Positions 2,702 to 37,126 of a stretch of 64,000 bases of DNA are shown in pieces. The notes under the pieces are model-generated. The model was not told the origin of the DNA and did not search any database. It saw only the letters and a list, made by a program, of their open reading frames with translations. Position numbers and translations under genes: made by a program. Position 1 is the first letter of the stretch, and each line of letters begins with the position of its first letter. Source of the DNA: an uncultured Candidatus Saccharibacteria bacterium (GTDB lineage: Bacteria; Patescibacteriota; Minisyncoccia; Ryanbacterales; GWA2-47-10b); contig CAYHJF010000002.1 of NCBI GenBank assembly GCA_964356915.1, positions 148,522 through 212,521 on the forward strand, in the 5' to 3' direction.

Positions 2702-3897
2702 ATAATCCCCCTCTTTGAAAGCACCTTATACAAACGATTTTTATTGTAGGCGCCATCAAAATACGTAACTCCATCTCGAATGCGCCGGAAAAAACTGATC
2801 TTTTCTGACTTTAAAAGTACGTCTCGCAAAACTTGCTGTAATTCCTCGTCTTGATTTTTGCGCTCCAGTTCGCAAAGGCTTGCCTCAAGGTGCACGCGCA
2901 CACCTGGAGAGCGTGCATCAATTTTACAAACTGCGCGCAAATCTAATGGTCGTGTAAAGGCTCCTGATTTATCTAAAACATTGGCAACTCGCAATTCAAT
3001 CATCGTACGTAAACATTTTTCACATGCACCACAATTATATTTACCGGCTACATTCTTATAGCATACCCTTAAATGCTCTAAAGCGTTATCGGAATTAGCA
3101 ATATATCGAGAAACCTTCTGAACACGGTTCGCTTCATTGCCATCATGAATAATTTTTGTAGCCTCTGTAGACCACAAAGGATCTAGCGCTGGGTGCGAAC
3201 CCCAAGGGAAAAGCTGCTCATAAGAATCAGTTGATGGTATATAAACCCTCTTTAACCCCGCTCTCAACATCAGTGCAACACCGCAGAGAGCTCCGCCATG
3301 TCCCCAATCCCAACTAATCATTTCATCCAAAATCTCTCGAATATTAGTACGCAAAAATATAACCTCTACATCCTCTGCCTCCGCAATTTTTCGAATACGT
3401 GCGGAAGTTTCCTCAAAAAGAGCTTTATTTAATAGATCAATATCAAAACCGTGCACAAAAATTAAATGAGTTATTTTTTCACCACCCTCTTTCTTATTTT
3501 TTAAAAAAGTATAAAAAGAATCCACCCCACCTGAGAAAAATGCACCTATGCACGTTGGCGAATAAGCACTGTCGTTGAAACTTCCTCTTGTATAGATCCG
3601 ACTATTAGAGTCGCGCCTGAATCCCCAAGAATTGTAAACTTCCTCGATCGATCTTAGGTTCTGATAATTTCTAGCATTAACTTGACCATCAATAATTAAG
3701 TCAAATCCTTTATTAGCAAACGCTGGGAAAAAACAAGCAAGAAAAATACTGGCATCAGATGCAAGGAAGGATTCGTATTTTTCATCAACTTCAAAATAGA
3801 GCTCTTTTTTCTTCCCAAAACCAAGTAGATCCGCTGAAAGCGCTACTGTCCCGTGTTTATTTGTTGTAATAATATTTTGTATTGTTATTGAATTCAT
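2698..3897 (-). CDS. PP-loop ATP pyrophosphatase superfamily protein, possibly an N-acetyl-sugar amidotransferase-like enzyme
   Basis: SGGVDS PP-loop motif ('FFSGGVDSFYTF'), C-terminal CGACEKC cysteine cluster, embedded in a glycosyltransferase operon. Confidence 0.55.
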   Translation of the reverse strand: MNSITIQNIITTNKHGTVALSADLLGFGKKKELYFEVDEKYESFLASDASIFLACFFPAFANKGFDLIIDGQVNARNYQNLRSIEEVYNSWGFRRDSNSRIYTRGSFNDSAYSPTCIGAFFSGGVDSFYTFLKNKKEGGEKITHLIFVHGFDIDLLNKALFEETSARIRKIAEAEDVEVIFLRTNIREILDEMISWDWGHGGALCGVALMLRAGLKRVYIPSTDSYEQLFPWGSHPALDPLWSTEATKIIHDGNEANRVQKVSRYIANSDNALEHLRVCYKNVAGKYNCGACEKCLRTMIELRVANVLDKSGAFTRPLDLRAVCKIDARSPGVRVHLEASLCELERKNQDEELQQVLRDVLLKSEKISFFRRIRDGVTYFDGAYNKNRLYKVLSKRGII

Positions 3898-5114
3898 ATG
3901 TTAGAAAATACTTTTTCCCAACGATTACGTTCGGCGATCTGGATTTCTGCCACCCTTTTATTTAGCGACTCCGATAGCATTGCCCGCGCTTCGTATGCTT
4001 TCTGTAGCAAATTATACAAAGCATCAACGGTTACCGCTTCACACGAAATAACATAGTCTTGCATCCCCAAATCCTCCCCGATACCTTCTGTTTTATATTC
4101 ATAGCTAATAGCAACAAATGGTATGCCCTGCGTTGCGGCAATAATATTCGAATGCATCCGCATCCCAAGCAATAATTCTAAACGACCGTAAGTATCTATG
4201 GCATCATCGACATCTTTCACAAAATGAACTGGCAATAAATTCACACCTAACTTTTCCAACTTACCCATAACACGTCTCACTACCCGTTCGTCGTCCTCTT
4301 CAATAAGTGTTGTGCTTACTTGCACAATAGGCTGGACATGCATGCCCCTCACCTTACAGAAAGTAGCCAAAGCTCTAACCACCTCCTCTTCAAAAAAAGA
4401 CTGTCGCTGCTTAGGCAACCAATTTCTCAATGTTAAACCAAGAACAAGATTTTCCCTTTTTGTAAGTAGTCGCTTCGACCCTAAGAGCGCGGAATCAAAA
4501 CCACGCCTTATATTAGAAAGTCTGTAACTTTCGAGCTTATGGTAAGAATAACCCTCACGCAAAATAACAAGGTTTAAATAAGACAAGGCTATAGCTGAAA
4601 TACGCTCTTGCCATTTATAATAAAATGGACCAAAGCTTATTGGCATTACAATAACTTTTTTACAAAGCAACCTAGCAGTGTAGATCATCAAAAGTTGCAT
4701 CATTAGATTTAGAGTCTGCTTGACCCCACTTTTTGACCGTAAATAACCTCCTCCGGGGAAAACTATTAGATCTGCCTGGGCATAATCATCAAGTAAATCT
4801 GCTAAATATGACTTCTTTGGTAAGCTAAAACTAAGTTGATAAAAAAATAGACGAACTAAAAATTCAAAGAACCTTAAAAAACGAACTCCTGCTTTAGGAT
4901 TATCAAAAACAACCCAAGAATATATTGTATGTTTAAGTGAACTAGCAAAAGAACTATCAGTATATAAATTTGGATCACTACTATGAACTACTGGCCGTAC
5001 GGATGGAAAAATATTTCTCAGCAGCTCTATTTCACTCAACAAAATAGCCTGATCTCCAGGATTTCTTGGACCAGTTGCGTGAGGAATCAAAATTTTTTTT
5101 ATTTCGTAGCTCAT
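3894..5114 (-). CDS. Polysaccharide pyruvyl transferase family protein (CsaB/WcaK-like)
   Basis: N-terminal 'GPRNPGDQAIL' (GxxNxGD) and C-terminal 'MRMHSNIIAATQGIPFVAISYEYK' motifs typical of the PS_pyruv_trans family. Confidence 0.7.
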   Translation of the reverse strand: MSYEIKKILIPHATGPRNPGDQAILLSEIELLRNIFPSVRPVVHSSDPNLYTDSSFASSLKHTIYSWVVFDNPKAGVRFLRFFEFLVRLFFYQLSFSLPKKSYLADLLDDYAQADLIVFPGGGYLRSKSGVKQTLNLMMQLLMIYTARLLCKKVIVMPISFGPFYYKWQERISAIALSYLNLVILREGYSYHKLESYRLSNIRRGFDSALLGSKRLLTKRENLVLGLTLRNWLPKQRQSFFEEEVVRALATFCKVRGMHVQPIVQVSTTLIEEDDERVVRRVMGKLEKLGVNLLPVHFVKDVDDAIDTYGRLELLLGMRMHSNIIAATQGIPFVAISYEYKTEGIGEDLGMQDYVISCEAVTVDALYNLLQKAYEARAMLSESLNKRVAEIQIAERNRWEKVFSNI

Positions 5115-6022
5115 CTTAATTCCTTCGATGACCTAGCAATATCCCATTTACTCCGCGTTGACTGCACATTAACAGGCAACAAGCGAGTTAATAACATTGC
5201 AAAACAATAATACAAAAAATAAATAGGGTGAGACACGAAGGTGCTTATAGTAAACTTTAATTTCAGTACAAGAGGAACCCTAAACTGCTCATCAATAAAT
5301 GCCTCTGAAAAATATTGAGAAAAAACTATTTTTGAATGCACAAAACGCTGGCTTTGTTTTAAATAGTCAAAGAAATTATCAGGAGATCGAAACATTACAA
5401 CAGCACTCTTCTGATAAGAAAAAGAATATTCTTGAGAGCGGCAACGCAAATAAGAGTAAACATCTTCTCCAACAACATCAACTGGCCACTTTAGCGTACT
5501 GGTAAATTCTTTTGAAAAGGCGCGAGCCGCTCCGCGACATAAATACAAATTATCTCTATTATTCATATTCAAAAATATATTCTCACGGAAATAAAAACCA
5601 AACGACATAACACGCTCAAAAAAAGTACCTCCCATCTGCGGCGACAAAGCAGCGCCTACAATACCTATATTCTCATTAGTATAAAATGGTTTTACTATTT
5701 CTCGTAAAAAATATTCGTTTGTTGGCAAAACGTCTGCATTCAACAAAACCAGAATATCGCCTTGAAAAAGTTTGAGAATATCATTTTGCCGCTCAGCCTG
5801 GCCTTTTCGATCTTTATTATCAACAACAAAAATTTTATCTGATGTTATAGACCGAGCCTCCACAACAGTCTTATCACTACTCCCATCTGAAATTACGATA
5901 ACTTCTTTCAGAACAAATCCTTCCTCTTTCTGACCTAAAAGAGCCGACAAGAGACGCTTGATGTTTGCCTCTTCATTGTAGGCGGGAATACCAATTGAAA
6001 GTGTAAAAAGATTCTTATTCAT
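5111..6022 (-). CDS. Family 2 glycosyltransferase (GT-A fold)
   Basis: 'SIGIPAYNEE' N-terminal motif and 'VISDGSSD' DXD-like region. Confidence 0.8.
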   Translation of the reverse strand: MNKNLFTLSIGIPAYNEEANIKRLLSALLGQKEEGFVLKEVIVISDGSSDKTVVEARSITSDKIFVVDNKDRKGQAERQNDILKLFQGDILVLLNADVLPTNEYFLREIVKPFYTNENIGIVGAALSPQMGGTFFERVMSFGFYFRENIFLNMNNRDNLYLCRGAARAFSKEFTSTLKWPVDVVGEDVYSYLRCRSQEYSFSYQKSAVVMFRSPDNFFDYLKQSQRFVHSKIVFSQYFSEAFIDEQFRVPLVLKLKFTISTFVSHPIYFLYYCFAMLLTRLLPVNVQSTRSKWDIARSSKELR

Positions 6023-11552: not shown

Positions 11553-11861
11553 AAAAAATAGAGACCGAGGGACATACCTACCTTGTATCTGTCCACTTGG
11601 AATCGATAAATTATTACATATATTGTCCGATATGTCAATATCTGGTTGCGCCAAAAAGTTGTTTATTTATAAGCAAAAAGTAAAAATCCGACCTCTTAAT
11701 AAGAAGCCGCGCATTATGGTGTATTGATTACAGCTGACTAAAGTTTGCTATTTTAATAAAATATCGACGTAGTAATGCCCTAGAAAATTCTTTACTGGCA
11801 AATAAAAAGGTCCGATTCCCCGTAGGAAACCAGACCTCAACTTCGGAGCTGAAAGCTCCTT

Positions 11862-13190
11862 TTAGTGAACGAAATTGACCTGAATGCTATTGCCTCCAGC
11901 CCGCCAAAGGCCGGTGGACGCCCACTCCTGATCATCGATGCTGACCTGAACGGTCAGATAGAGATCGGTAATGCCCGAGAATTCCTCGTAGGCACGAACG
12001 CGCACGATGTACTGGGTCGGGCCACCATGAGCACCGATACTGACCTCATAGAGGCCGCCTCGAATGCCGGGACCAGACTTTGCGGTTGGATCCTTGAACT
12101 TCCATCGCTTGGCCGTACCAGCTCCATGCACCAGATCTCCAGGCTGGAGACAGGCTGACCATATCTTGCCCTGCGTCGCATTGGCGAGCAGAAAGCAAAC
12201 CGTCTTGGTCTCAGGCGCAAAGGGCTCGCCGGGGATGATACCTCCCGAAGCCTTGAAGTGGTCCTTGGCCGGATTCCTTACATTGAATACGATCCGCGCA
12301 GGATCACGTTCGAACAAATCGCAATCACAGTCTGCGGCATCGACACAGTCGACGAGTCCATCGTCGTCATTGTCGTTGTTATCGTGGCAGACTTCCTGCT
12401 TGTTGCAGCTATTGTCGCACGCATCAGTATTGATCTGGTTGCCGTCATCGCACTCTTCATTTCCTTCGACGACGCCATTTCCACAGATCTGCTCGAACCC
12501 GCAACTCGCGCTACAGCCATCGCCACCGCGCATCGTGCAGAGCCCGTCGCCGATACCAACGCAATTTGCGTCGGCAACACACAACGTGCCATTGCTACAA
12601 TGCTTTCCATCATCGCACTGCTCACCACTCTGTGTGACTCCATCGCCACACAACGGGAAACACGGATAGAGATTCGAGTGAAGCGCGCTGGCAGGCAGCG
12701 AATTATTTGGATACGGCTCCCAAAACGGGACGTTCCAATCGTGACTATGCAACGCGCAGATCTCATCGCCAACGGCGTCCGAGCATGAATTGATGACGCT
12801 CCACTGCGTCTGGATCCCCCATCCATAGAGAGTCTGAGGGTTACCATTCACGATGATGGTTCGCGTATCCAAACCGCAGAAGCACTGCAACACTTCGTCG
12901 CAAGGATTTTGTGGATCGGTACCAACACAATATGTATCATCGACTCCAAGAACGTTATGTTGATGATTGTCGGGATCAGGTACGAGTAGCGGGATCACGG
13001 TGCCATCGGGAAGAATATCTCCGATGATGCCGTGCCAATCGTTGGGACCATGATGGGATGCGTGATCACCAAACACGAAATGTCCATTCTGATATTGAAC
13101 GTCAGCACATGTTGGAAAATCTGGTCGCGTGGTCGCGAGCGCAACGCTCGCTGCACAGATACTTGCTATGACAAGGTACTTCTTCAGCAC
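11862..13190 (-). CDS. Secreted cysteine-rich repeat protein (Myxococcus-type CGxGxxExGEECDDGN repeats) with a His-rich N-terminal domain
   Basis: Signal peptide 'MLKKYLVIASICAASVALA'. Repeats 'CGDGVTQSGEQCDDGKHC' and 'CGNGVVEGNEECDDGNQINTDACDNSC'. Strong RBS AAGGAGGG ahead of a GTG start. GC-rich relative to flanking sequence. Confidence 0.65.
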   Translation of the reverse strand: MLKKYLVIASICAASVALATTRPDFPTCADVQYQNGHFVFGDHASHHGPNDWHGIIGDILPDGTVIPLLVPDPDNHQHNVLGVDDTYCVGTDPQNPCDEVLQCFCGLDTRTIIVNGNPQTLYGWGIQTQWSVINSCSDAVGDEICALHSHDWNVPFWEPYPNNSLPASALHSNLYPCFPLCGDGVTQSGEQCDDGKHCSNGTLCVADANCVGIGDGLCTMRGGDGCSASCGFEQICGNGVVEGNEECDDGNQINTDACDNSCNKQEVCHDNNDNDDDGLVDCVDAADCDCDLFERDPARIVFNVRNPAKDHFKASGGIIPGEPFAPETKTVCFLLANATQGKIWSACLQPGDLVHGAGTAKRWKFKDPTAKSGPGIRGGLYEVSIGAHGGPTQYIVRVRAYEEFSGITDLYLTVQVSIDDQEWASTGLWRAGGNSIQVNFVH

Positions 13191-13343
13191 TTCTCCCTCC
13201 TTTTGTGAGAGAACAGCCTTCCTCGCATACTACGAGGTGACAAATCAATATATACAATTTACGATATTTTGTCAATACATCTCTTTCAAAAAGCAACTTT
13301 CATCTTCATTACTATCTATATGTTTTTATACTTTCTGTCTTTT

Positions 13344-13380
13344 TAAATAAAAATCCAATGGCACGCCTAGCATGCCATTG
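13344..13380 (-). terminator. Rho-independent terminator downstream of the 13405..14361 gene
   Basis: Inverted repeat CCAATGGCA/TGCCATTGG followed by a T-run on the minus strand. Confidence 0.5.
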
Positions 13381-13404
13381 GCTTGGGACTTCGATAGTTC
13401 TTGT

Positions 13405-14361
13405 TTAGAGAACCTTGCGATATTTACAGTACCGATGAAGGCTCATACAGAGACGCCCGATGTACCTCTTCTCGGCCCTTGTGATTCTGCCTGGGTAGAC
13501 AGCCATTTGACGATCTTTGCAATCCCAGAGCACATCCTTATGTTCAGGACGCACAACACATGGATCGTTATTCTGACATGGTGGTGTGATGATCACGGGA
13601 CAACAGGAGTTACACTCTTGCTGCGGAGGACAAGCTTCCGGACACTCGTCCGGCGGGGGGCACGTATTGTCGCACCCCTCAAGCGTGCAGTGATTGCTAC
13701 ACGCATCGCTGTCCACCCGATTACCATCGTCACATTCTTCATCATCTTCGACGATGCCATTACCACAACCCTTCTCGATATTGCAGTTGGCATCACAGCC
13801 ATCGCCGTCAACACGATTATCATCATCGCACACTTCTCCGACATTCAGCGTGCCATTACCGCACTGCGGGCGACACGAGTAGAATACCGAGTGAAATGCG
13901 ATGGCGGGAGGACCATTCGGTCCACCGTCATAGAACGGGAAGTTCCAGTTGCGCCCGTGAAGAGCACAAACCTCGGGGGCGACTGCCTCCAAACATGTAT
14001 TGGCGATACGCCACTGGGTCTGGATCCCGAGCCCATCAGGCACGTCGGGATCGCCCAACGAACAGTAGCACTGAACGAATCGATTGGGATTGTTTGGATC
14101 CCTATAGACATCGTCGACGCCAAACAGGTTGCGAGACGGCAGAATTGTGGTGTCGGGCAACCTGCCGCCAATGATGCCATGGGCATCACCTGGATTGTGA
14201 TGCGACGCATGGTCGCCCAGTACGAACCGTCCTCCATCGAACTGCATCTCGGGACACGTGATGAACCTCGGGATGCTCGGAATCGGCGTCGGCGGGAGCA
14301 CCACTGCTTGAGCGATACTCGCGACCATCGCGAGTATCATGACTGCAAAGAACTCTTTCAT
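13405..14361 (-). CDS. Secreted cysteine-rich repeat protein, paralogue of 11862..13190, with a distinct basic Cys-containing C-terminal tail
   Basis: Shares the N-terminal domain (GDHASHH...HGIIG...GIQTQW...CALH...WNFPF) and the CGNG..CDD repeats with the neighbouring paralogue. AAAGGAGG RBS 6 nt before the ATG at 14361. The longer track ORF starts further upstream and is probably an over-call. Confidence 0.65.
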   Translation of the reverse strand: MKEFFAVMILAMVASIAQAVVLPPTPIPSIPRFITCPEMQFDGGRFVLGDHASHHNPGDAHGIIGGRLPDTTILPSRNLFGVDDVYRDPNNPNRFVQCYCSLGDPDVPDGLGIQTQWRIANTCLEAVAPEVCALHGRNWNFPFYDGGPNGPPAIAFHSVFYSCRPQCGNGTLNVGEVCDDDNRVDGDGCDANCNIEKGCGNGIVEDDEECDDGNRVDSDACSNHCTLEGCDNTCPPPDECPEACPPQQECNSCCPVIITPPCQNNDPCVVRPEHKDVLWDCKDRQMAVYPGRITRAEKRYIGRLCMSLHRYCKYRKVL

Positions 14362-14458
14362 GTCTGTCTTCCTCCTTTTGGTAGACATAGACGTCTGCCG
14401 AGAATACGGCAATGCGACCCACTTCCTAAAGTGAACTATTTTTAGGATAATAGAACCC

Positions 14459-15280
14459 ATGACCTCCATTTCCTCTTATACTGCCGCACTTCTATTAGGC
14501 TTCTTACAAGGTATCACTGAATTTTTGCCTATCTCCTCTTCTGGGCATCTCATCGTCGCGGAAGAATTTATGGGCCTAAACCCCTCTGCGTGGCTTTCTT
14601 TTGACGTAGCACTCCACGTCGCAACCGCATGCGTTGTATTATTTTATTTTCGAAAAGAATGGCAAGAAATGATTAAAGCATTCTTTCAACGCTCATCTGA
14701 TAACTCTCGACGACTTTTACTTCTCAACATTATCATCGGGACGATTCCCGCAGGAATTGCCGGCATTCTTGCTGAAAAAATCATTAGCGAACATGTACGA
14801 AATATTCAAATTGTGGCAATTGGACTTATCCTTGGAAGCGGTATCATGTGGGGGGCAGAAAAACTTTACTCCATGCGTAAAAAAGAAGGTTCTGCAATTG
14901 AAAAACCATTCTCTCCATTTGAGAGCTTTCTTATTGGATGCTTTCAGGCGCTCGCCCTCTTTCCTGGACTATCACGTTCTGGAGCAACAATTTCCGGAGG
15001 CCTCATTCTTGGTCATGATCGATATCACGCGACTAAATATTCTTTTTTACTCGCCACGCCAATCATTATAGGAGCATCTCTCAAAACATTTTCAGACAAC
15101 CTCACGCATATTGGCTCACAGGATATACCGATTTTTTTTATCGGCTTTGTCACTGCATTTATCACTGGCTACGCATCACTGCACTATCTCATTCGTCTCA
15201 TGAAAACAAATACGCTCAGGCCGTTTATTATTTATCGACTTTGCCTGGCGGTAATACTCTTTGCAGTTGTCTTGTTTTAA
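14459..15280 (+). CDS. uppP: Undecaprenyl-diphosphate phosphatase
   Basis: 'GITEFLPISSSGHL' and 'PGLSRSGATISGGL' signature motifs of BacA/UppP. Confidence 0.9.
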   Translation: MTSISSYTAALLLGFLQGITEFLPISSSGHLIVAEEFMGLNPSAWLSFDVALHVATACVVLFYFRKEWQEMIKAFFQRSSDNSRRLLLLNIIIGTIPAGIAGILAEKIISEHVRNIQIVAIGLILGSGIMWGAEKLYSMRKKEGSAIEKPFSPFESFLIGCFQALALFPGLSRSGATISGGLILGHDRYHATKYSFLLATPIIIGASLKTFSDNLTHIGSQDIPIFFIGFVTAFITGYASLHYLIRLMKTNTLRPFIIYRLCLAVILFAVVLF

Positions 15281-15900
15281 TTTGAACTCTTGCGCTTCTT
15301 TTCGCTTTGATAGATTAAATATTCTTGCCCAACATGCCATACTGCTGGCAGTACTGAAATAACAACAATTGCAAGAATAATTGGTAACAAGTACTTATCT
15401 ATTCCGGGGATCATACTACCAAGAAAATATCCCAACACGGGCATACCAACGCCCCATAAAACTCCTCCGATAACATTATAAAAAAGAAACGTAGGATATT
15501 TCATTTTTCCGACTCCAGCGATAACGGGAGCAAATGTTCTAATAATCGGCATAAAGCGCGCCAAAATAATTGTCTTGGGTCCATGTTTTTCATAAAAACG
15601 CTCTGCTCGTTTCAAATGATCTTTATGAAATAATAAAGAATCCTCTCGCTTAAAAAGTCGCGGTCCTATGCGATATCCAAACGCATACCCAACATTGTCT
15701 CCTAAAATCGCGGCCACGAGTGTAAGTGGAATTAAATAACCAATATGTAAATATCCTTGAGACGCAAGAAATCCTGCAGTAAATAAAAGAGAGTCGCCAG
15801 GAAGGAAAAAACCAATCAATAATCCCGACTCCGCAAAGACAATAAAAAAAAGACCGACGTAACCCGCCGTACGTATGAGTGTTTCAGGATCAAGTAGCAT
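15277..15900 (-). CDS. DedA-family membrane protein
   Basis: 'FFLPGDSLLFTAGFLA' and the conserved Gly-rich re-entrant region typical of DedA/SNARE-associated proteins. Confidence 0.8.
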   Translation of the reverse strand: MLLDPETLIRTAGYVGLFFIVFAESGLLIGFFLPGDSLLFTAGFLASQGYLHIGYLIPLTLVAAILGDNVGYAFGYRIGPRLFKREDSLLFHKDHLKRAERFYEKHGPKTIILARFMPIIRTFAPVIAGVGKMKYPTFLFYNVIGGVLWGVGMPVLGYFLGSMIPGIDKYLLPIILAIVVISVLPAVWHVGQEYLIYQSEKKRKSSN

Positions 15901-16025
15901 ACCGCGAGTATATCATGTCTTTTACTATACGTAGAGACTCGGCCTTGCGTATTCTTTATTTTTATGGTATGAGTATTCCTAGGCTTGTTCATTTGAGCCA
16001 CAACAACCCAGAGGAGGAATACGCG

Positions 16026-16868
16026 ATGCGACTCAAAAACACGGGATGGATCGGGGCGATGGTCGCCACGATCTTCATTGCCTATGCCAACATGGCGGAG
16101 GCACGGCCAGCTCGCTGCGACGAGGCAGGCTGGATCACCAAATGCTGCGGTGTGTGCGCCATGATGCCAACGGCGGAAGCCTGCACCACAGAGAAGAACG
16201 ACGGCACTACGTTCGTCGACCGATGCTGTCCGGACGAAGCCAAGCTCGAAATCGAGCACATCACGTTCGACCCGATGAAGCCCAACGCCGGCATGTTCGC
16301 CAGCGCGTGGGTGTCCATCTCGAACGTCAGCGATGTCGAAACCTACGCCGACGTCACAATCAGCGTCACGTGTCATGCCTTCGGAAGCGACGTCCAGACG
16401 GACAGCGCAACGATGGCATTCATCGGCGAGTACTTCGGCCCCCTGCAGACGCGGCACGACTTCGTGCTGCAATGGATGACCACGGTCAAAGAAGACTGCT
16501 TGGTCACCGCCAAGGTCGCCTACACAGTCGCTTCGTGCGGCGACCAGAAGATCACCGTGGAGTCATCCCCGGTGCCCATGTGGGTACTCGACCCACTCCC
16601 ACCGAACACGTGCACGTGCGAAACCGAGCCCTGTCAGGAGTGCCAGACCTGCGAGATCTGCACTCCGCAAGAGCCCTGCAAGCCCGGCCCGGAGTGCACG
16701 AACAACGATCCATGTATCGTCCGCGATGGCTTCAAGGACGTCCTCTGGGACTGCAAGGAACGCCAGATGCGAGCCTGCCCCGGAAGAATCACGAAGGCCG
16801 AAAGCAAGCGGATCAAGCGAACCTGCATGGCACTGCTACGCTACTGCCGCGACCGCAAGATCCTCTAG
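16026..16868 (+). CDS. Secreted cysteine-rich protein sharing its C-terminal ~55-aa tail with the 13405..14361 paralogue
   Basis: GAGGAGG RBS before the ATG at 16026; signal peptide 'MRLKNTGWIGAMVATIFIAYANMAEA'; tail 'NNDPCIVRDGFKDVLWDCKERQMRACPGRITKAESK' is homologous to the tail of the paralogue. GC-rich. Confidence 0.6.
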   Translation: MRLKNTGWIGAMVATIFIAYANMAEARPARCDEAGWITKCCGVCAMMPTAEACTTEKNDGTTFVDRCCPDEAKLEIEHITFDPMKPNAGMFASAWVSISNVSDVETYADVTISVTCHAFGSDVQTDSATMAFIGEYFGPLQTRHDFVLQWMTTVKEDCLVTAKVAYTVASCGDQKITVESSPVPMWVLDPLPPNTCTCETEPCQECQTCEICTPQEPCKPGPECTNNDPCIVRDGFKDVLWDCKERQMRACPGRITKAESKRIKRTCMALLRYCRDRKIL

Positions 16869-16897: not shown

Positions 16898-16937
16898 AAT
16901 GCTTCTATGCGCATATCGCGTAGAAGCATTTTTTATT
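16898..16937. terminator. Bidirectional rho-independent terminator between convergent genes
   Basis: AATGCTTCTA ... TAGAAGCATT stem followed by TTTTTTATTT. Confidence 0.55.
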
Positions 16938-16950
16938 TCTATATAAAAAA

Positions 16951-17466
16951 CTATCCTCTCTTATACATTAAGAATCCCATCGAGATACTTCCTAATATAA
17001 ACGCGCCAACCATTGGAATGATTGCGAGCGTTGTTTTTGTTTCTAACGCTGGCTGAACGTCAATCATATAATCAGGAAAAGAAATCCACACGCCAGGATT
17101 TGAAGCAAACGCCACATCAACGAAAATTTCATGAATTCCAGCGTCAGCAAATGTATATGAAAATTCATGAATTCCTCCCTCCGCTCTTCCCTCCATATGC
17201 GCAATCTCTTGAGAATGCCCTTGTTTTGTAATACGAATTTTTACTAATACTGGCTCATGTACTGCCTCGTGATGCATCTCCCCTTGCTTCAACCTCAAAA
17301 AAGAAACTAGCATATTATTTTGCACACCTTGTCGCGGCGTATAAGGAGCCTTGGAGAGAAGTGCTAAAAATTTTCCGTCGTCAGTCACGCGCATATCGCC
17401 GCCATTTGCGTAGGCAATCCCTGCACATAAAATGATTAAAGAAAAAATGCTAATCTTACGAATCAT
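16951..17466 (-). CDS. Hypothetical secreted protein with a C-terminal TM anchor, His-rich
   Basis: Signal peptide 'MIRKISIFSLIILCAGIAYA' and C-terminal hydrophobic helix; no family recognised. Confidence 0.4.
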   Translation of the reverse strand: MIRKISIFSLIILCAGIAYANGGDMRVTDDGKFLALLSKAPYTPRQGVQNNMLVSFLRLKQGEMHHEAVHEPVLVKIRITKQGHSQEIAHMEGRAEGGIHEFSYTFADAGIHEIFVDVAFASNPGVWISFPDYMIDVQPALETKTTLAIIPMVGAFILGSISMGFLMYKRG

Positions 17467-34531: not shown

Positions 34532-34560
34532 CCCAATCTCTGATTGGGTTATTTTTTAAT
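34532..34560. terminator. Bidirectional terminator hairpin
   Basis: CCCAATC-tct-GATTGGG followed by TTATTTTTT. It sits just 3' of the plus-strand small ORF and overlaps the last codons and stop of the minus-strand RT gene. Confidence 0.5.
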
Positions 34561-35565
34561 CCCCAAAGCCTGCGTCCCAAGATAACTTCTCACTTTTTCT
34601 GTAAGCCGGTAACAATTTCCATGCTTCAAAATACCGAAATACGATTGGATCGTTTCCTCATTTCTTTGTTTTCGTTCAAGCATTCGAAATATTCTCTTTC
34701 TCGTAACAGTTCTCAATATTCGATGGTAGGGAAAATGCAACCACCCAAGAAAATCTACACCCGAAGCAAATGTTTGTATAAATACCTTGTCGGGGTGTAG
34801 CTGAAGGCGCAATCGCTCCCATAAATAATTGCTGATTTTGGGAAGAATGACTTTAAGATACTCTTTATCTTGCGACAAAATCACAAAATCATCAGCATAG
34901 CGGGTATAGTATTTAGCTTTGAGTTTGTGTTTCATAAATTGGTCAAACTCATTCATATAGATATTTACAAGAAGCTGGCTCGTGAGATTGCCGAGCGGCA
35001 GCCCCTTGCCTTTTTCTGTTGAGTAAAAACTGTCGACGATTTGAGATATCAGCCAGACAATATCTTTATCGAGAATATAGCTATTAATTACCTCCGTGAG
35101 GACTTTCTGGTCAACGGAAGCAAAGAACTTGCGTATGTCGCATTTCAAAACCCAAATGGTTTTTGTGTTATTTTCTGATGCTCGATAGGCAAACTCTCGA
35201 AACCTATCCATTGCCTTGTGTGTTCCCTTACCCAATCTGCATGAATACGAATCGACCACGAATGTCTTACCAAAAAATGAATAAAGTTTTCGATATAGAG
35301 CATGGTGGAGTAGTCTGTCTCTCACACTTGCTTTGTGAATATTTCTCGGTTTTGGGTCGGAAATATTGAATGCTTCGTAAGAGGAATGCGTGTAGGTTTT
35401 TGCTTTTAAATCATTGTGAAGCAAGATGATGTTGCTTATGAGATAGAGCTCAAATTGCTGGACATCCTTGCGATGCCGTTTGCCACGCACAAATTCTCTC
35501 CACGCATCAAGGAAATTTTCGAGAGAAATGATATCATCGTAGGTATGAGTGAATTGCCGTTTCAT
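34549..35565 (-). CDS. Reverse transcriptase of a diversity-generating retroelement
   Basis: RT motifs including 'YTRYADDFVIL' (YADD). Motif 4 is 'LGNLTSQ', the DGR-type [ILV]GxxxSQ rather than the GxxxSP of group II and retron RTs. 338 aa. Adjacent TR/VR pair. Confidence 0.8.
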   Translation of the reverse strand: MKRQFTHTYDDIISLENFLDAWREFVRGKRHRKDVQQFELYLISNIILLHNDLKAKTYTHSSYEAFNISDPKPRNIHKASVRDRLLHHALYRKLYSFFGKTFVVDSYSCRLGKGTHKAMDRFREFAYRASENNTKTIWVLKCDIRKFFASVDQKVLTEVINSYILDKDIVWLISQIVDSFYSTEKGKGLPLGNLTSQLLVNIYMNEFDQFMKHKLKAKYYTRYADDFVILSQDKEYLKVILPKISNYLWERLRLQLHPDKVFIQTFASGVDFLGWLHFPYHRILRTVTRKRIFRMLERKQRNEETIQSYFGILKHGNCYRLTEKVRSYLGTQALGIKK

Positions 35566-35601
35566 AGAAATCTCGCCGGTACGCCCCCCCCCCGACAGGT
35601 T

Positions 35602-35964
35602 TTGCCTGTTTTACAGAAGCTGAAGGGCGCATATTTACTGTGGTACCAATATTACCAAGCATTACCCAAACTCCATCGGTATTCTCTCGGCAAAAGGGTA
35701 GATAATCTTTTTATAGAAAGCATTGAAGCTATCGCAAGTGCAAGCTTTCTTGTGCGAGAAGAAAAGATGCCGTATGTGCGTCTTGCCATTCGTAAAGTTG
35801 ATACACTCAAGATATTGTTGATGATTTTGTGGGAGACAAAATCTCTTGATAACAAGAAGTATGTGGCTGTTTCCATAAAGATTGATGAGATTGGGAAAAT
35901 GCTTGGAGGATGGAACGGACAGCTTACGAAACAAAACTCCCCGCCAAAAGCTAGGGAGAAATGA
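35602..35964 (+). CDS. Avd-like four-helix-bundle protein (23S-rRNA-IVS protein family), DGR accessory protein, on the opposite strand to the RT
   Basis: 'LPKLHRYSLGKRVDNLFIESIEAIASA' and the C-terminal 'EIGKMLGGW' match the Avd/IVS family pattern (FPK.E.Y.L..Q.RRAA.SI..NIAEG ... EI.KML). Start uncertain: TTG at 35602 or ATG at 35545. Confidence 0.6.
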   Translation: MPVLQKLKGAYLLWYQYYQALPKLHRYSLGKRVDNLFIESIEAIASASFLVREEKMPYVRLAIRKVDTLKILLMILWETKSLDNKKYVAVSIKIDEIGKMLGGWNGQLTKQNSPPKAREK

Positions 35965-35970
35965 AGAGAG

Positions 35971-36092
35971 TTGCGAGCCGCGCCGCAGGGTTGTTGTCGT
36001 TCCAGTCGTTGTCGAGCCAGCTATAGTTCCAGTTCCACCTGTCGTCATTGAAGTAGAGGTAGCGGACGTACAGGTTGCCATCCGAGTTGCGG
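35971..36092 (-). repeat. DGR template repeat (TR); sense strand is minus
   Basis: About 122 nt, near-identical to the 3' end of the 36454..36972 gene. Every one of the 19 mismatches sits where the TR has an adenine. Contains many AAC codons. Confidence 0.75.
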
Positions 36093-36330
36093 TGATGTAA
36101 AGCGTGCCGTCTGTGCCACTGCCCTTTGAATACTCTCGAGGCTGTATCGAATTCGGCATCTTCAATGCCTTAACACGCAATACCAAGTATCTTCATTTTT
36201 TAAGAGTTACCATCGTACCACTCTGCCTGAAACCGTAATCGCAGACACTCTCGGTATCGGGGATACTGGGTTCGGTAGCAAGAAACCATAGTCTCTCACA
36301 TATTCACCTACTGCCAAGAATATTTTAGCA

Positions 36331-36366
36331 TAAAAAATTACCCCCACATCGCGATGATGTGAGGGC
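36331..36366 (-). terminator. Rho-independent terminator downstream of the DGR target gene
   Basis: GGGGGTG-like stem CCCTCACATC/GATGTGGGGG followed by TAATTTTTTAT on the minus strand. Confidence 0.45.
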
Positions 36367-36453
36367 ACCCGTCAGAGGCTATTCGGGAAAGCCTTTTGCC
36401 GTTCAAAGGACCCAGTTCCAAGGTCAGAGACCAAAGGAACCGAGTCCCAAGAA

Positions 36454-36972
36454 CTAACTTGCGAGCCGCGCCGCAGGGCCGATGTCGTCCCAGTCGTCGT
36501 CGAGCCAGCTACAGGACCAGTCCCACCTGCCGCCATCGAAGTAGAGGCAGCGGACGAACAGGCGGCCACCCGAGCGGCGGTAGATGGTGCCCCAGAAGAA
36601 GACGGCTTTGCCTTTCCATTCCTCGGGGATGAGGTACTGGTTGGCGAGGAAGTAGTCGAGGACATTGGCGTTGAGCATCGGCTCACGCGCGAGCTCCTTT
36701 CGGAGCTTGTTGCCCTCGATGACCTTGCCGTCCTTCTGGTTCGGGGAGAGGTGGAGCGAGACCTTAGCGGGGCCCCACTCGAACTGGCCACCCTTCTTGT
36801 GCTCCTCGACCTTCCAGCCATCGGGCGTGAAAGGATCGACATCACAGTCGATGATGTGGCGGACGATGGTGACCTCCGCACGTCCTGAGAGGAGGCGGTG
36901 TACACCTTCCATACCACCCAGCTTGTTGACAATGGCTTCCACCTGTCCGAGATCCAGTTCTCCGTACTTCAC
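36454..36972 (-). CDS. DGR target protein (172 aa) with the variable repeat at its C-terminus; function unknown
   Basis: AAGGAG RBS 6 nt before a GTG at 36972; the longer track ORF begins at an upstream ATG. The C-terminal ~40 codons are the VR. GC-rich. No signal peptide. Confidence 0.65.
   Translation of the reverse strand: MKYGELDLGQVEAIVNKLGGMEGVHRLLSGRAEVTIVRHIIDCDVDPFTPDGWKVEEHKKGGQFEWGPAKVSLHLSPNQKDGKVIEGNKLRKELAREPMLNANVLDYFLANQYLIPEEWKGKAVFFWGTIYRRSGGRLFVRCLYFDGGRWDWSCSWLDDDWDDIGPAARLAS
36459..36580 (-). repeat. DGR variable repeat (VR)
   Basis: Counterpart of the TR; differs from it only at TR-adenine positions (A to G, C or T). Ends in the GC-rich 'CCCTGCGGCGCGGCTCGCAA' segment just before the stop. 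Confidence 0.75.
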
Positions 36973-37126
36973 GGTTATCTCCTTTCGAGCTGTTTGCCCG
37001 ATTGCTTCTTGCTTCCCGCAAGCTGAGGGGCGTATGGCGTTCATGCCACAGCAGAAAATGTCCTAGAAATGAGGCGCTTTCTGCTGTGGCAAGTCGCAAA
37101 TAGATATTTAAAGAGCTAACGGTTGC

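What the first reader, a model, noticed from the sequence alone, without database searches (positions are those of the whole stretch)
11862..16868. Three GC-rich paralogous secreted cysteine-rich repeat proteins, two of them sharing a conserved basic C-terminal tail
The genes at 11862-13190, 13405-14361 and 16026-16868 each have a signal peptide and a strong AAGGAGG-type RBS. Each is markedly GC-richer than its flanks, and this produces long spurious antisense ORFs. Two share an N-terminal His-rich domain (GDHASHH, HGIIG, GIQTQW, CALH, WN.PF) followed by Myxococcus-type CGxGxxExGEECDDGN repeats. The second and third share a ~55-aa tail 'NNDPC[IV]VR...KDVLWDCK[DE]RQM...PGRIT[RK]AE[KS]K...C..L.RYC..RK[IV]L'. 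The nucleotide sequences of the tails are only ~70% identical, so this is an old duplication with amelioration rather than a recent one. The tail could be a surface-anchoring or sorting module. The adjacent glycosylation locus could be modifying these proteins.
Basis: partly seen in the sequence, partly recalled or inferred. Interest (0 to 1): 0.6.

Follow-up and report, generated by a model that had tools for sequence, protein, structure and literature searches.

The report
Mosaic secreted cysteine-rich proteins, GC-rich
Three separately transcribed genes in a groundwater Patescibacteria genome encode small secreted, disulfide-rich modular proteins built from shuffled parts (a new His-rich head, known Myxococcus-type Cys repeats, and a basic helical tail found in no other genome), and their codon composition is foreign to the host; they are probably surface binding proteins, a kind already suspected in these bacteria.

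Summary
Three real, secreted, 6-8% cysteine proteins lie at 11862-13190(-), 13405-14361(-) and 16026-16868(+). Each has an AGGAGG ribosome-binding site and its own terminator.

They are a mosaic, not three paralogues:
- A and B share a 140-aa His/Asp/Cys head (43% identity) plus DUF4215/TIGR02232 repeats.
- B and C share a 33-aa Cys-Pro hinge plus a 57-aa basic tail (65% identity).
- A and C share nothing, and C has no repeats.

An exhaustive HMMER search of 1.84 billion representatives found the tail only in B and C. The head has only four other known carriers, all on groundwater metagenome contigs.

GC3 is 0.58, 0.59 and 0.82, against 0.386 ± 0.043 for the host. All four homologues elsewhere are likewise GC-richer than their flanks.

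Both gene pairs are old (dS > 2) and under purifying selection (dN/dS 0.10-0.17). Independent assemblies reproduce gene A and its neighbours, so chimerism is excluded.

The tail has no hydrophobic segment and matches no known sorting signal. It is modelled as two helices.

Most likely reading: horizontally mobile, modular surface or adhesion proteins, with the hinge and tail acting as a non-covalent attachment or oligomerisation module. A link to the neighbouring glycosylation genes is not supported. Function remains inferred, because the structure models were poor.

The parts
11862..13190 (-). Gene A. 442 aa, GTG start, NCBI MEK7643434.1. Layout: signal peptide, His-rich head, DUF4215 repeats, Asp-rich Cys motif, C-terminal beta-rich domain.
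   Evidence: ORF. PF13948 scores 44.9 bits (cut-off 27) and TIGR02232 scores 36.8 bits (cut-off 20.8). 6.1% Cys, pI 4.4. The identical protein occurs in independent Hainich assemblies.
12651..13124 (-). A head domain, residues about 23-180. A new His/Asp/Cys-conserved domain.
   Evidence: Alignments A1 and A3. Invariant residues: GDHAxHH, P-x-D-x-HG, DD-x-Y, QC-x-C, GIQ-x-x-W, WN-x-P, HS, and 4 Cys. No Pfam or PDB sequence match.
12396..12650 (-). A DUF4215/TIGR02232 Cys-rich acidic repeats, residues about 181-265.
   Evidence: 2-3 matched stretches.
11865..12395 (-). A Asp-rich Cys motif (VCHDNNDNDDDGLVDCVDAADCDC) followed by a C-terminal beta-rich domain of about 150 aa.
   Evidence: The C-terminal domain is shared only with P0002, P0003 and P0004 among the 121 retrieved proteins. 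The AF2 model shows beta strands but at low confidence.
13195..13202 (-). Ribosome-binding site of A, AAGGAGGG.
   Evidence: Sequence. Only 7 of 47 naive ORF starts in the window carry GGAGG.
13247..13275 (-). Promoter-like site upstream of A (TTGACA, 17 nt spacer, TATATT).
   Evidence: 11 of 12 matches. This is a consensus match only.
11807..11838 (-). Terminator-like hairpin after A.
13405..14361 (-). Gene B. 318 aa from the ATG at 14361. NCBI MEK7643435.1 is annotated 36 aa longer. Layout: signal peptide, head, 2 DUF4215 repeats, Cys-Pro hinge, basic tail.
   Evidence: PF13948 scores 34.8 bits and TIGR02232 scores 68.8 bits. The ribosome-binding site and signal peptide favour the 318-aa start.
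13861..14274 (-). B head domain, residues 30-167.
   Evidence: 49-64% identical to the other five heads.
13678..13860 (-). B DUF4215 repeats, residues 168-228.
13576..13674 (-). B Cys-Pro hinge: 33 aa, 8 Cys, 9 Pro.
   Evidence: Weak SPRR2 resemblance only.
13408..13578 (-). B basic tail: 57 aa, pI 9.5, 5 Cys.
   Evidence: Unique to B and C among 1.84 billion representatives.
14370..14377 (-). Ribosome-binding site of B, AAGGAGGA.
   Evidence: Sequence. The 19-nt region is 84% identical to that of A (D6).
13355..13381 (-). Terminator-like hairpin after B.
   Evidence: 12-bp stem followed by a T run.
16026..16868 (+). Gene C. 280 aa. NCBI MEK7643438.1 is annotated as 291 aa. Layout: signal peptide, Cys-rich N-terminal segment, Ig-like beta-sandwich, Cys-Pro hinge, basic tail.
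   Evidence: No Pfam or NCBIfam family. No homologue other than itself in the word-indexed search. GC3 0.815.
16239..16580 (+). C beta-sandwich body, residues about 72-185.
   Evidence: AF2 pLDDT 55-74. Foldseek finds only generic Ig-like sandwiches: ApaG, GH2 sandwich, adhesin repeat domains, E about 4e-4, TM-score up to 0.57 on the target's length.
16599..16697 (+). C Cys-Pro hinge: 33 aa, 8 Cys, 7 Pro.
16695..16865 (+). C basic tail: 57 aa, pI 9.6, 6 Cys. Modelled as two helices, residues 239-249 and 257-276.
   Evidence: dN/dS against the B tail is 0.10.
16011..16018 (+). Ribosome-binding site of C, GAGGAGGA.
   Evidence: Sequence.
16898..16930 (+). Terminator-like hairpin after C.

Best explanation
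The locus encodes three independently transcribed, Sec-exported, disulfide-rich modular proteins of a groundwater Patescibacteria MAG (GCA_038065535.1). They are built from shuffled modules.

**Modules**
- A new 140-aa head with invariant His, Asp and Cys residues. It is probably a metal-dependent binding or catalytic site. Present in A and B.
- Myxococcus-type DUF4215 Cys repeats acting as a rigid stalk. Present in A and B.
- A family-specific beta-rich C-terminal domain. Present in A.
- An orphan Ig-like sandwich. Present in C.
- A 90-aa C-terminal module made of a 33-aa Cys-Pro hinge and a 57-aa basic two-helix tail. Present in B and C.

**Most likely function (inferred)**
They are extracellular or cell-surface binding (adhesion-type) proteins. 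The hinge and tail would keep an otherwise very acidic ectodomain (pI 4.2) on the anionic envelope, or join subunits through hinge disulfides and helix packing. This would give different heads one common mode of attachment.

**Origin**
The genes are compositionally foreign, self-contained cassettes, each with a strong ribosome-binding site and its own terminator. They were acquired or exchanged horizontally, and the same holds for their four homologues in other low-GC groundwater contigs.

**Shown versus inferred**
- Shown: gene reality, secretion signals, the mosaic architecture, purifying selection, the composition anomaly, and the rarity of head and tail.
- Inferred: adhesion, metal binding, the tail's role, and horizontal origin.
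For: **Architecture and homology**
-.
- The same 33-aa hinge format recurs in P0005, in front of another basic Cys tail (pI 10.3).

**Real genes under selection**
- dN/dS is 0.10-0.17 with dS above 2.
- The tail sits on two unrelated bodies, the pattern expected of an attachment or sorting module rather than an effector.
- The tail is modelled as two helices at pLDDT 66-81.

**Extracellular setting of DUF4215 repeats**
- In other proteins these repeats are joined to C-type lectin, PA14/fibro-slime, PPC, FG-GAP and thioredoxin-like domains (Pfam columns).
- Cys-rich extracellular proteins with weak Myxococcus-repeat similarity were already proposed as attachment proteins in CPR Peribacteria (PMC4736985).
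- DUF4215 occurs in a diatom adhesive-trail protein (bioRxiv 10.1101/2023.03.06.531300).

**Foreign composition**
- GC3 lies 4.5 to 10 sd above background, while the ATP synthase genes are normal at 0.39.
- Homologues have GC3 0.55-0.74 in flanks of GC 0.40-0.46.
- All homologues have AGGAGG sites and terminator hairpins and sit in unrelated neighbourhoods.

**Not an artefact**
- The identical gene A with the same neighbours is present in separate assemblies.
Against: - There is no direct functional evidence.
- The AF2 models are poor (mean pLDDT 44 for A, 54 for C). No fold could be assigned to the head, and the metal-site idea rests only on invariant residues.
- No homologue of the head was found in any GC-rich genome that could be a donor, so horizontal origin is inferred from composition alone.
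- With dS saturated between A and B, lasting GC-richness is hard to reconcile with a long stay in a low-GC genome.
- No insertion scars, flanking repeats or tRNAs were found.
- The tail could equally be an oligomerisation module or a released cationic peptide.
- One of my searches failed, and the metagenome scan depends on two peptide patterns, so the family size is a lower bound.
Confidence: 0.5

Rival explanations
1. The basic tail is a cationic, disulfide-stapled helical-hairpin effector (antimicrobial or membrane-active peptide). It would be carried as the C-terminus of an anionic pro-protein, the way anionic pro-pieces neutralise defensins, and released by proteolysis to act on a host or competitor membrane.
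For: - Charge split: tail pI 9.5-9.6, body pI 4.2-4.3.
- Two predicted helices with conserved Cys.
- Strong purifying selection on the tail (dN/dS 0.10).
- Patescibacteria are thought to live on host cells (general knowledge; PMC4736985).
Against: - The same tail sits on two unrelated, large, structured bodies. Effector systems usually keep the carrier constant and vary the C-terminal toxin.
- No processing site or dedicated protease is evident.
- Hydrophobic moments are unremarkable (about 0.9-1.0).
- No similarity to any known peptide family.
Confidence: 0.12
2. The head domain of A and B is a secreted metallo-enzyme, for example a cell-wall or glycan hydrolase aimed at a host envelope. On this view these are enzymes on stalks rather than adhesins.
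For: - Five invariant His, four invariant Asp and one invariant Glu across six sequences at 40-64% identity. These include an H-x3-D element within GDHAxHHxPxDxHG.
- The homologue in L001 lies about 1 kb downstream of a Fur-family regulator and a ZIP metal transporter, with two ORFs between.
Against: - No Pfam, NCBIfam or PDB sequence match, even at E = 10.
- The model is too poor for fold assignment.
- The resemblance to LAS-type HxxxD motifs is from memory and was not tested.
- The metal-gene neighbourhood is seen in only one of five loci.
Confidence: 0.2
3. The GC-richness is not a mark of recent import. It is maintained within Patescibacteria, for instance by GC-biased gene conversion in frequently recombining surface-protein genes, or by selection on the mRNA. 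The family would then be native to these bacteria.
For: - All six known head-domain genes are GC3-rich in low-GC contexts, even though they have diverged to 40-58% identity and dS is saturated.
- No GC-rich-genome homologue of the head, the tail or the C body was found in 5.8-15 billion proteins.
- The domain mosaic itself shows recombination.
- An unrelated hypervariable gene in the window, the DGR target, also has GC3 0.78.
Against: - No direct evidence of gene conversion.
- GC3 differs strongly between B (0.59) and C (0.82), and between their homologous tails (0.51 against 0.79).
- The best matches to the repeats come from high-GC Myxococcota and Binatia.
Confidence: 0.25
4. The proteins are substrates of the adjacent glycosyltransferase / UppP / DedA envelope locus. 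They would be glycosylated surface proteins.
For: Adjacency to GT2, GT4 and pyruvyl-transferase genes and to UppP and DedA.
Against: - None of the four homologues has glycosylation neighbours.
- Each gene is its own transcription unit.
- The proteins have a different composition from the locus.
- No Ser/Thr-rich glycosylation tracts are evident.
Confidence: 0.07
5. Assembly chimera or contamination: GC-rich reads from another organism were stitched into a low-GC contig.
For: A sharp composition contrast.
Against: - The GC-rich genes form two separate blocks (A-B and C), split by the host-like uppP and dedA genes, on one contig.
- The identical gene A with the same glycosyltransferase neighbours is present in independent assemblies ERZ1292625 and ERZ1292619 and in a Logan run.
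- Four homologues show the same pattern in other assemblies.
Confidence: 0.02

Closest known systems
DUF4215 (PF13948) / TIGR02232 'myxo_disulf_rpt' cysteine-rich acidic repeat proteins of Myxococcota and others
   Same: A and B carry 2-3 repeats scoring above both curated cut-offs. They are secreted, acidic and Cys-rich. The repeats link other extracellular modules, as in the many hits.
   Different: The head, the A-type C-terminal domain, the hinge and the tail are not part of that family. C has no such repeat. The proteins are small (280-442 aa), lie in a low-GC Patescibacteria genome, and have few repeats. The function of DUF4215 itself is unknown.
Cysteine-rich extracellular proteins of CPR Peribacteria (Anantharaman et al. 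2016, PMC4736985)
   Same: CPR bacteria from groundwater, with signal peptides and about 7% Cys. They show weak similarity to Myxococcus Cys-rich repeat proteins and were proposed to act in attachment.
   Different: Those proteins average 1,655 aa and lie in a 14-gene cluster. No sequence comparison with them was made here. No head or tail domain like these was reported.
C-terminal protein-sorting or anchoring modules (LPXTG/sortase, PEP-CTERM/exosortase, GlyGly-CTERM/rhombosortase, T9SS CTD; amphipathic C-terminal helix of PBP5-type carboxypeptidases)
   Same: A conserved C-terminal module on otherwise different secreted proteins of one genome, rich in basic residues at the very end.
   Different: No hydrophobic transmembrane stretch (KD19 at most -0.14 in the last 60 aa). 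No signature motif. No NCBIfam or Pfam hit. Four to six Cys and a Cys-Pro hinge. Only two copies are known anywhere.
Hinge-type Cys-Pro regions (immunoglobulin hinge, SPRR / small proline-rich proteins)
   Same: A 33-aa segment with 45-52% Cys+Pro, placed between a structured body and a terminal module. Weak SPRR2 hit, E = 0.012, below the cut-off.
   Different: No homology. Interchain disulfide formation is only an analogy from memory.

Membership tests
DUF4215 (PF13948) / TIGR02232 cysteine-rich acidic repeat | Score above the curated gathering or trusted cut-off of the family model. | tested here: met
   A: 44.9 bits (cut-off 27) and 36.8 bits (cut-off 20.8). B: 34.8 bits (cut-off 27) and 68.8 bits (cut-off 20.8).
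DUF4215 (PF13948) / TIGR02232 cysteine-rich acidic repeat | The same criterion applied to gene C. | tested here: not met
   No hit at E <= 1 in Pfam or NCBIfam. C is not a member.
DUF4215 (PF13948) / TIGR02232 cysteine-rich acidic repeat | Tandem CGNGxxExGExCDDGNxxxxDGCxxxC units. | tested here: met
   Visible in A (residues about 181-265) and B (168-228). 2-3 matched stretches.
Sortase / exosortase / rhombosortase-type C-terminal sorting signals | Signature motif, then a hydrophobic transmembrane helix, then a basic cluster at the C-terminus. | tested here: not met
   The best 19-aa Kyte-Doolittle window in the last 60 residues is -0.14 (B) and -0.35 (C). No LPXTG, PEP or GlyGly motif in the sequence. 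No NCBIfam hit.
T9SS C-terminal domain | A beta-sandwich CTD of about 80 aa matching the TIGR04183 or Pfam models. | tested here: not met
   No NCBIfam or Pfam hit. The tail is modelled as helical.
MopE-like / thrombospondin-type-3-like Asp-rich metal-binding motif (PF11617), for the CxDxxDNDxDGLVDCxDxxDC segment of A | Match to the family model. | tested here: not met
   PF11617 was not reported for A at E <= 1. The resemblance is by eye only. The motif is shared with P0003 and P0004.
New His-rich head family (A, B, P0002-P0005); provisional, not a curated family | A domain of about 140 aa with invariant C...GDHAxHH.P.D.HG...DD.Y...QC.C...GIQ..W...WN.P...HS...C, following a signal peptide. 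| tested here: met
   Alignment A3 has 41 invariant columns. The profile scores all members at 1e-67 to 1e-77 and none of the other 116 DUF4215 proteins.
CARDB / Ig-like adhesin domains (C body) | Pfam match, or a confident specific structural match. | tested here: inconclusive
   No Pfam hit (DUF5067 E = 0.099). Foldseek gives only generic sandwiches at E about 4e-4 from a model with pLDDT 55-74.
Diversity-generating retroelement (seen in passing at 34.5-37.0 kb) | Reverse transcriptase, Avd, and a TR/VR pair differing only at TR adenines. | tested here: met
   RVT_1 and bAvd hits. 123-nt repeat at 85% identity. 19 of 19 mismatches fall at TR adenines.

The most novel reading that the evidence does not exclude
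The His-rich head family and the hinge-tail module are parts of a small, mobile 'adhesin cassette' system specific to groundwater Patescibacteria.
- The cassettes would be single-gene units, each with its own strong ribosome-binding site and terminator.
- They would move and recombine among low-GC genomes while keeping a high GC3, through biased gene conversion or capture from high-GC hosts.
- The head would be a previously undescribed metal-dependent binding or lytic domain used to engage host cells.
- The hinge and tail would be a new kind of non-covalent, disulfide-stapled envelope anchor.
Probability: 0.15. Interest if true: 0.6.

Novelty: new variant of a known kind. Interest (0 to 1): 0.36.

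Why it matters
Patescibacteria (CPR) are thought to live attached to other cells, yet the proteins that make contact are almost unknown. Small secreted modular proteins with a conserved new head and a lineage-specific attachment-type tail are candidate contact molecules. They could be looked for in Hainich groundwater metaproteomes.

All six known genes of the head family keep a GC3 far above their low-GC hosts despite saturated divergence. This is a small, well-defined puzzle about how composition is kept or how often such genes move.

Practically, the locus shows how GC-rich genes in AT-rich genomes mislead gene callers. One antisense ORF was called as a gene, and two start codons were placed too far upstream.

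If the proteins turn out to be ordinary DUF4215 surface proteins acquired by transfer, the finding adds two unannotated domains to catalogue and little more.

Tried and rejected
**Searches that found nothing or failed**
- The profile search of the head alignment in the 5.8-billion-protein index returned nothing, not even its own members. The same profile scores them at 1e-67 to 1e-77 locally, so I treat as a tool failure, not as evidence.
- Head pattern scans: GTDB species genomes gave no relative. JGI metagenomes gave only L001, which is P0004. Viral contigs gave none. Plasmids gave none.
- Tail: viral contigs gave none. hhalign against the P0005 tail was not significant. The similar format of P0005 (33-aa hinge plus basic Cys tail) is therefore analogy, not shown homology.
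- Gene C: no homologue in the word-indexed search or in plasmids.
- A search for close relatives of the neighbouring UppP, meant to define insertion boundaries by synteny, found none in GTDB genomes.
- PHROGs and PADLOC gave no hits. There is no sign of phage or defence origin.
- Literature searches found only the Peribacteria precedent and a diatom adhesive protein with DUF4215.

**Structure**
- The AF2 models were poor.
- Foldseek against the PDB gave nothing for A and only generic sandwiches for C.

**Readings rejected**
- Integrated island with att-like repeats or tRNA: no flanking repeats and no tRNA genes.
- Expression-linked codon bias as the cause of high GC3: the ATP synthase alpha and beta genes have GC3 0.39.
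- Amino-acid composition alone as the cause: the excess is at third codon positions.

Full report
**1. What is there**

- A, 11862-13190(-), 442 aa, GTG start.
- B, 13405-14361(-), 318 aa.
- C, 16026-16868(+), 280 aa.

Each gene has the marks of an independent, exported product:
- Each starts with a hydrophobic signal-peptide-like segment. This is the only hydrophobic stretch in the protein.
- Each has a canonical Shine-Dalgarno site: AAGGAGGG, AAGGAGGA and GAGGAGGA (sequence).
- Each is followed by its own hairpin and T-run, at 11838-11807(-), 13381-13355(-) and 16898-16930(+). They are therefore three separate transcription units.
- Strong GGAGG sites are not the rule here. Only 7 of 47 naively called ORF starts have one, and three of those are A, B and C. 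Start calls were naive, so this is a rough count.

The proteins are 6.1-8.2% Cys, against at most 3% for every other ORF in the window. They are acidic, pI 4.4-5.0.

The source is a Patescibacteria MAG, GCA_038065535.1, contig JBBTQU010000013.1. The proteins are MEK7643434.1, MEK7643435.1 and MEK7643438.1. NCBI's B (354 aa) and C (291 aa) start further upstream than the ribosome-binding site and signal peptide indicate.

**2. Composition**

| Gene | GC | GC3 |
|---|---|---|
| A | 0.540 | 0.580 |
| B | 0.545 | 0.589 |
| C | 0.609 | 0.815 |
| 44 other ORFs | – | mean 0.386, sd 0.043, max 0.483 |

- The ATP synthase alpha and beta genes, which are highly expressed, have GC3 0.39. The excess is therefore not an expression-linked codon bias.
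- The excess sits at third codon positions, so amino-acid content does not explain it.
- The GC-rich sequence does produce long antisense and alternative-frame ORFs.
- In an ENA assembly of the same organism, the gene caller picked the ORF antisense to B (L006 2-877).

**3. Relationships: a mosaic, not three paralogues**

- A and B align over 262 aa at 43% identity, E = 3e-62.
- B and C align over their last 89 aa at 54% identity, E = 3e-25.
- A and C share nothing.

A and B carry DUF4215 (PF13948) and TIGR02232 repeats above the curated cut-offs. C carries none.

The A-B shared part begins with a head of about 140 aa. Its invariant residues are C, GDHAxHH, P.D.HG, DD.Y, QC.C, GIQ..W, WN.P, HS and C.

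The B-C shared part has two pieces:
- A 33-aa Cys-Pro hinge with 8 Cys and 7-9 Pro.
- A 57-aa tail, 65% identical, pI 9.5-9.6, with 5-6 Cys.

A ends differently. It has an Asp-rich Cys motif followed by a beta-rich domain of about 150 aa.

C has a Cys-rich N-terminal segment and a beta-sandwich body.

Both pairs are old and constrained:

| Pair | dS | dN/dS |
|---|---|---|
| B-C tail | 3.0 | 0.10 |
| A-B head | 2.4 | 0.17 |

Tail nucleotide identity is 65.5%, and 46% at third positions.

**4. How rare are the parts**

- **Tail.** An exhaustive HMMER profile search of 1.84 billion representatives, standing for about 15 billion proteins, found only B and C.
- **Gene C.** As a whole it found only itself.
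- **Head.** It occurs in four other proteins, P0002-P0005.
  - All four are on short groundwater metagenome contigs. One comes from the same Hainich H41 sample as the window organism, and one from an 'ANAN16' ENA aquifer assembly.
  - None was found in GTDB species genomes, viral contigs or plasmids.
  - The head profile matches no Pfam family or PDB sequence, even at E = 10.
- **A-type C-terminal domain.** It is confined to A, P0002, P0003 and P0004 among the 121 retrieved DUF4215 proteins.
- **P0005.** It has the B-type layout: head, one repeat, a 33-aa Cys-Pro hinge and a basic Cys tail of pI 10.3. Its tail is not detectably homologous.

One search returned nothing at all and is treated as a tool failure.

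**5. The family behaves the same everywhere**

- All four homologues are GC-richer than their flanks: gene GC 0.52-0.61 and GC3 0.55-0.74, against flanks of 0.40-0.46.
- All have AGGAGG-type sites and a downstream hairpin.
- All sit in unrelated neighbourhoods:
  - Fur, ZIP and YibE_F.
  - Beta_propel.
  - PBP and YchF.
  - Peptidase_A4 and DUF5666.
- There is therefore no conserved link to the glycosyltransferase, UppP and DedA genes that surround A, B and C in the window.
- No flanking repeats or tRNAs mark an insertion.
- Independent assemblies carry the identical gene A with the same neighbours, which excludes a chimera.

**6. Structure**

- The model for A was poor, with mean pLDDT 44. 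Foldseek found nothing for it.
- For C, mean pLDDT was 54.
  - The body (residues 72-185) is a beta-sandwich with pLDDT 55-74. It matches only generic Ig-like sandwiches.
  - The tail is modelled as two helices, residues 239-249 and 257-276, with pLDDT 66-81.
- The tail has no hydrophobic stretch and no match to any known sorting-signal model.

**7. Interpretation**

*Shown:* three real, exported, disulfide-rich, modular proteins. They have shuffled domains, are under purifying selection, and are compositionally foreign. The head and tail are not catalogued anywhere.

*Inferred:* they act outside the cell as binding or adhesion proteins. This rests on three points:
- DUF4215 repeats elsewhere join lectin, PA14, PPC and FG-GAP type modules (Pfam columns).
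- Cys-rich extracellular proteins with similarity to Myxococcus repeats were already proposed as attachment proteins in CPR Peribacteria (PMC4736985).
- A DUF4215 protein is part of diatom adhesive trails.

A conserved C-terminal module on two unrelated bodies is the pattern of an attachment, sorting or oligomerisation module. The charge split (pI 9.5 tail on a pI 4.2 body) and the Cys-Pro hinge fit electrostatic retention on an anionic envelope, or disulfide-linked oligomers.

The head's invariant His and Asp residues suggest a metal site. Whether it binds or cleaves something is open.

Horizontal origin is the simplest reading of the composition. But no donor was found, and the GC-richness has outlasted saturated divergence. 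Maintained GC-richness, for example by biased gene conversion in recombining surface genes, is therefore a live rival.

**8. Verdict**

'Three paralogous repeat proteins' should read 'a three-gene domain mosaic'.

On the interpretation:
- The old divergence is supported.
- 'Amelioration' is not shown.
- The tail as an anchor is plausible, but it is not a known sorting signal.
- The glycosylation link is unsupported.

In kind this is a variant of known DUF4215-type secreted Cys-rich proteins, already noted in CPR. It has two or three uncatalogued modules and a consistent composition anomaly. Interest is moderate.

Noticed in passing
window 34549-37044: A complete diversity-generating retroelement. 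Parts: reverse transcriptase 34549-35565(-) (RVT_1); a bAvd-like ORF within 35416-35964(+); template repeat 35971-36093; variable repeat 36459-36581 at the 3' end of a 196-aa target gene 36454-37044(-). The repeats are 123 nt and 85% identical, and all 19 mismatches fall at adenines of the template. The target gene has GC3 0.78, as anomalous as gene C, while the RT is host-like at 0.42.
   Followed up: yes
window 13372-14469 and 15993-16028; L006 2-877: Annotation problems caused by the GC-rich genes. NCBI starts B 36 aa and C 11 aa upstream of the start that has the ribosome-binding site and signal peptide. The long version of B overlaps the uppP start on the other strand. In an ENA assembly the ORF antisense to B was called as the gene.
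   Followed up: partly
window 14459-15900: uppP/bacA (14459-15280, +) and a DedA/VTT-family gene (15277-15900, -) lie convergent and overlap by 4 nt, between the GC-rich genes. This pairs an undecaprenyl-diphosphate phosphatase with a member of the family that contains undecaprenyl-phosphate flippases (the flippase point is from general knowledge). They sit next to a GT2/GT4/pyruvyl-transferase cluster at 2.7-11.7 kb.
   Followed up: no
L001 637-3027 (upstream of the homologue P0004 at 4074-5189): The head-domain homologue in another Hainich contig lies about 1 kb downstream of a Fur-family regulator, a ZIP metal transporter and a YibE/F protein, with two further ORFs (3033-3350 and 3355-3936) in between. 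This is a possible hint at a metal link for the His-rich head, but it is seen in only one of five loci.
   Followed up: partly
window about 35648: By arithmetic, NCBI contig JBBTQU010000013.1 (59,292 bp) would end near window position 35648, inside the DGR region. The window may therefore join two contigs or come from a longer assembly. Gene A is also recorded on a 217-kb contig. No N-run is visible at that position.
   Followed up: partly
window 16951-17466 (-): A 171-aa protein with a signal peptide, several His residues and a C-terminal membrane helix lies directly downstream of C on the other strand. It has no Pfam or PHROGs hit.
   Followed up: no
window, all ORF starts: Only 7 of 47 naively called ORF starts have a GGAGG within 22 nt upstream. 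Shine-Dalgarno use looks low in this genome, which makes the perfect sites of A, B and C stand out. Start codons were not curated.
   Followed up: partly
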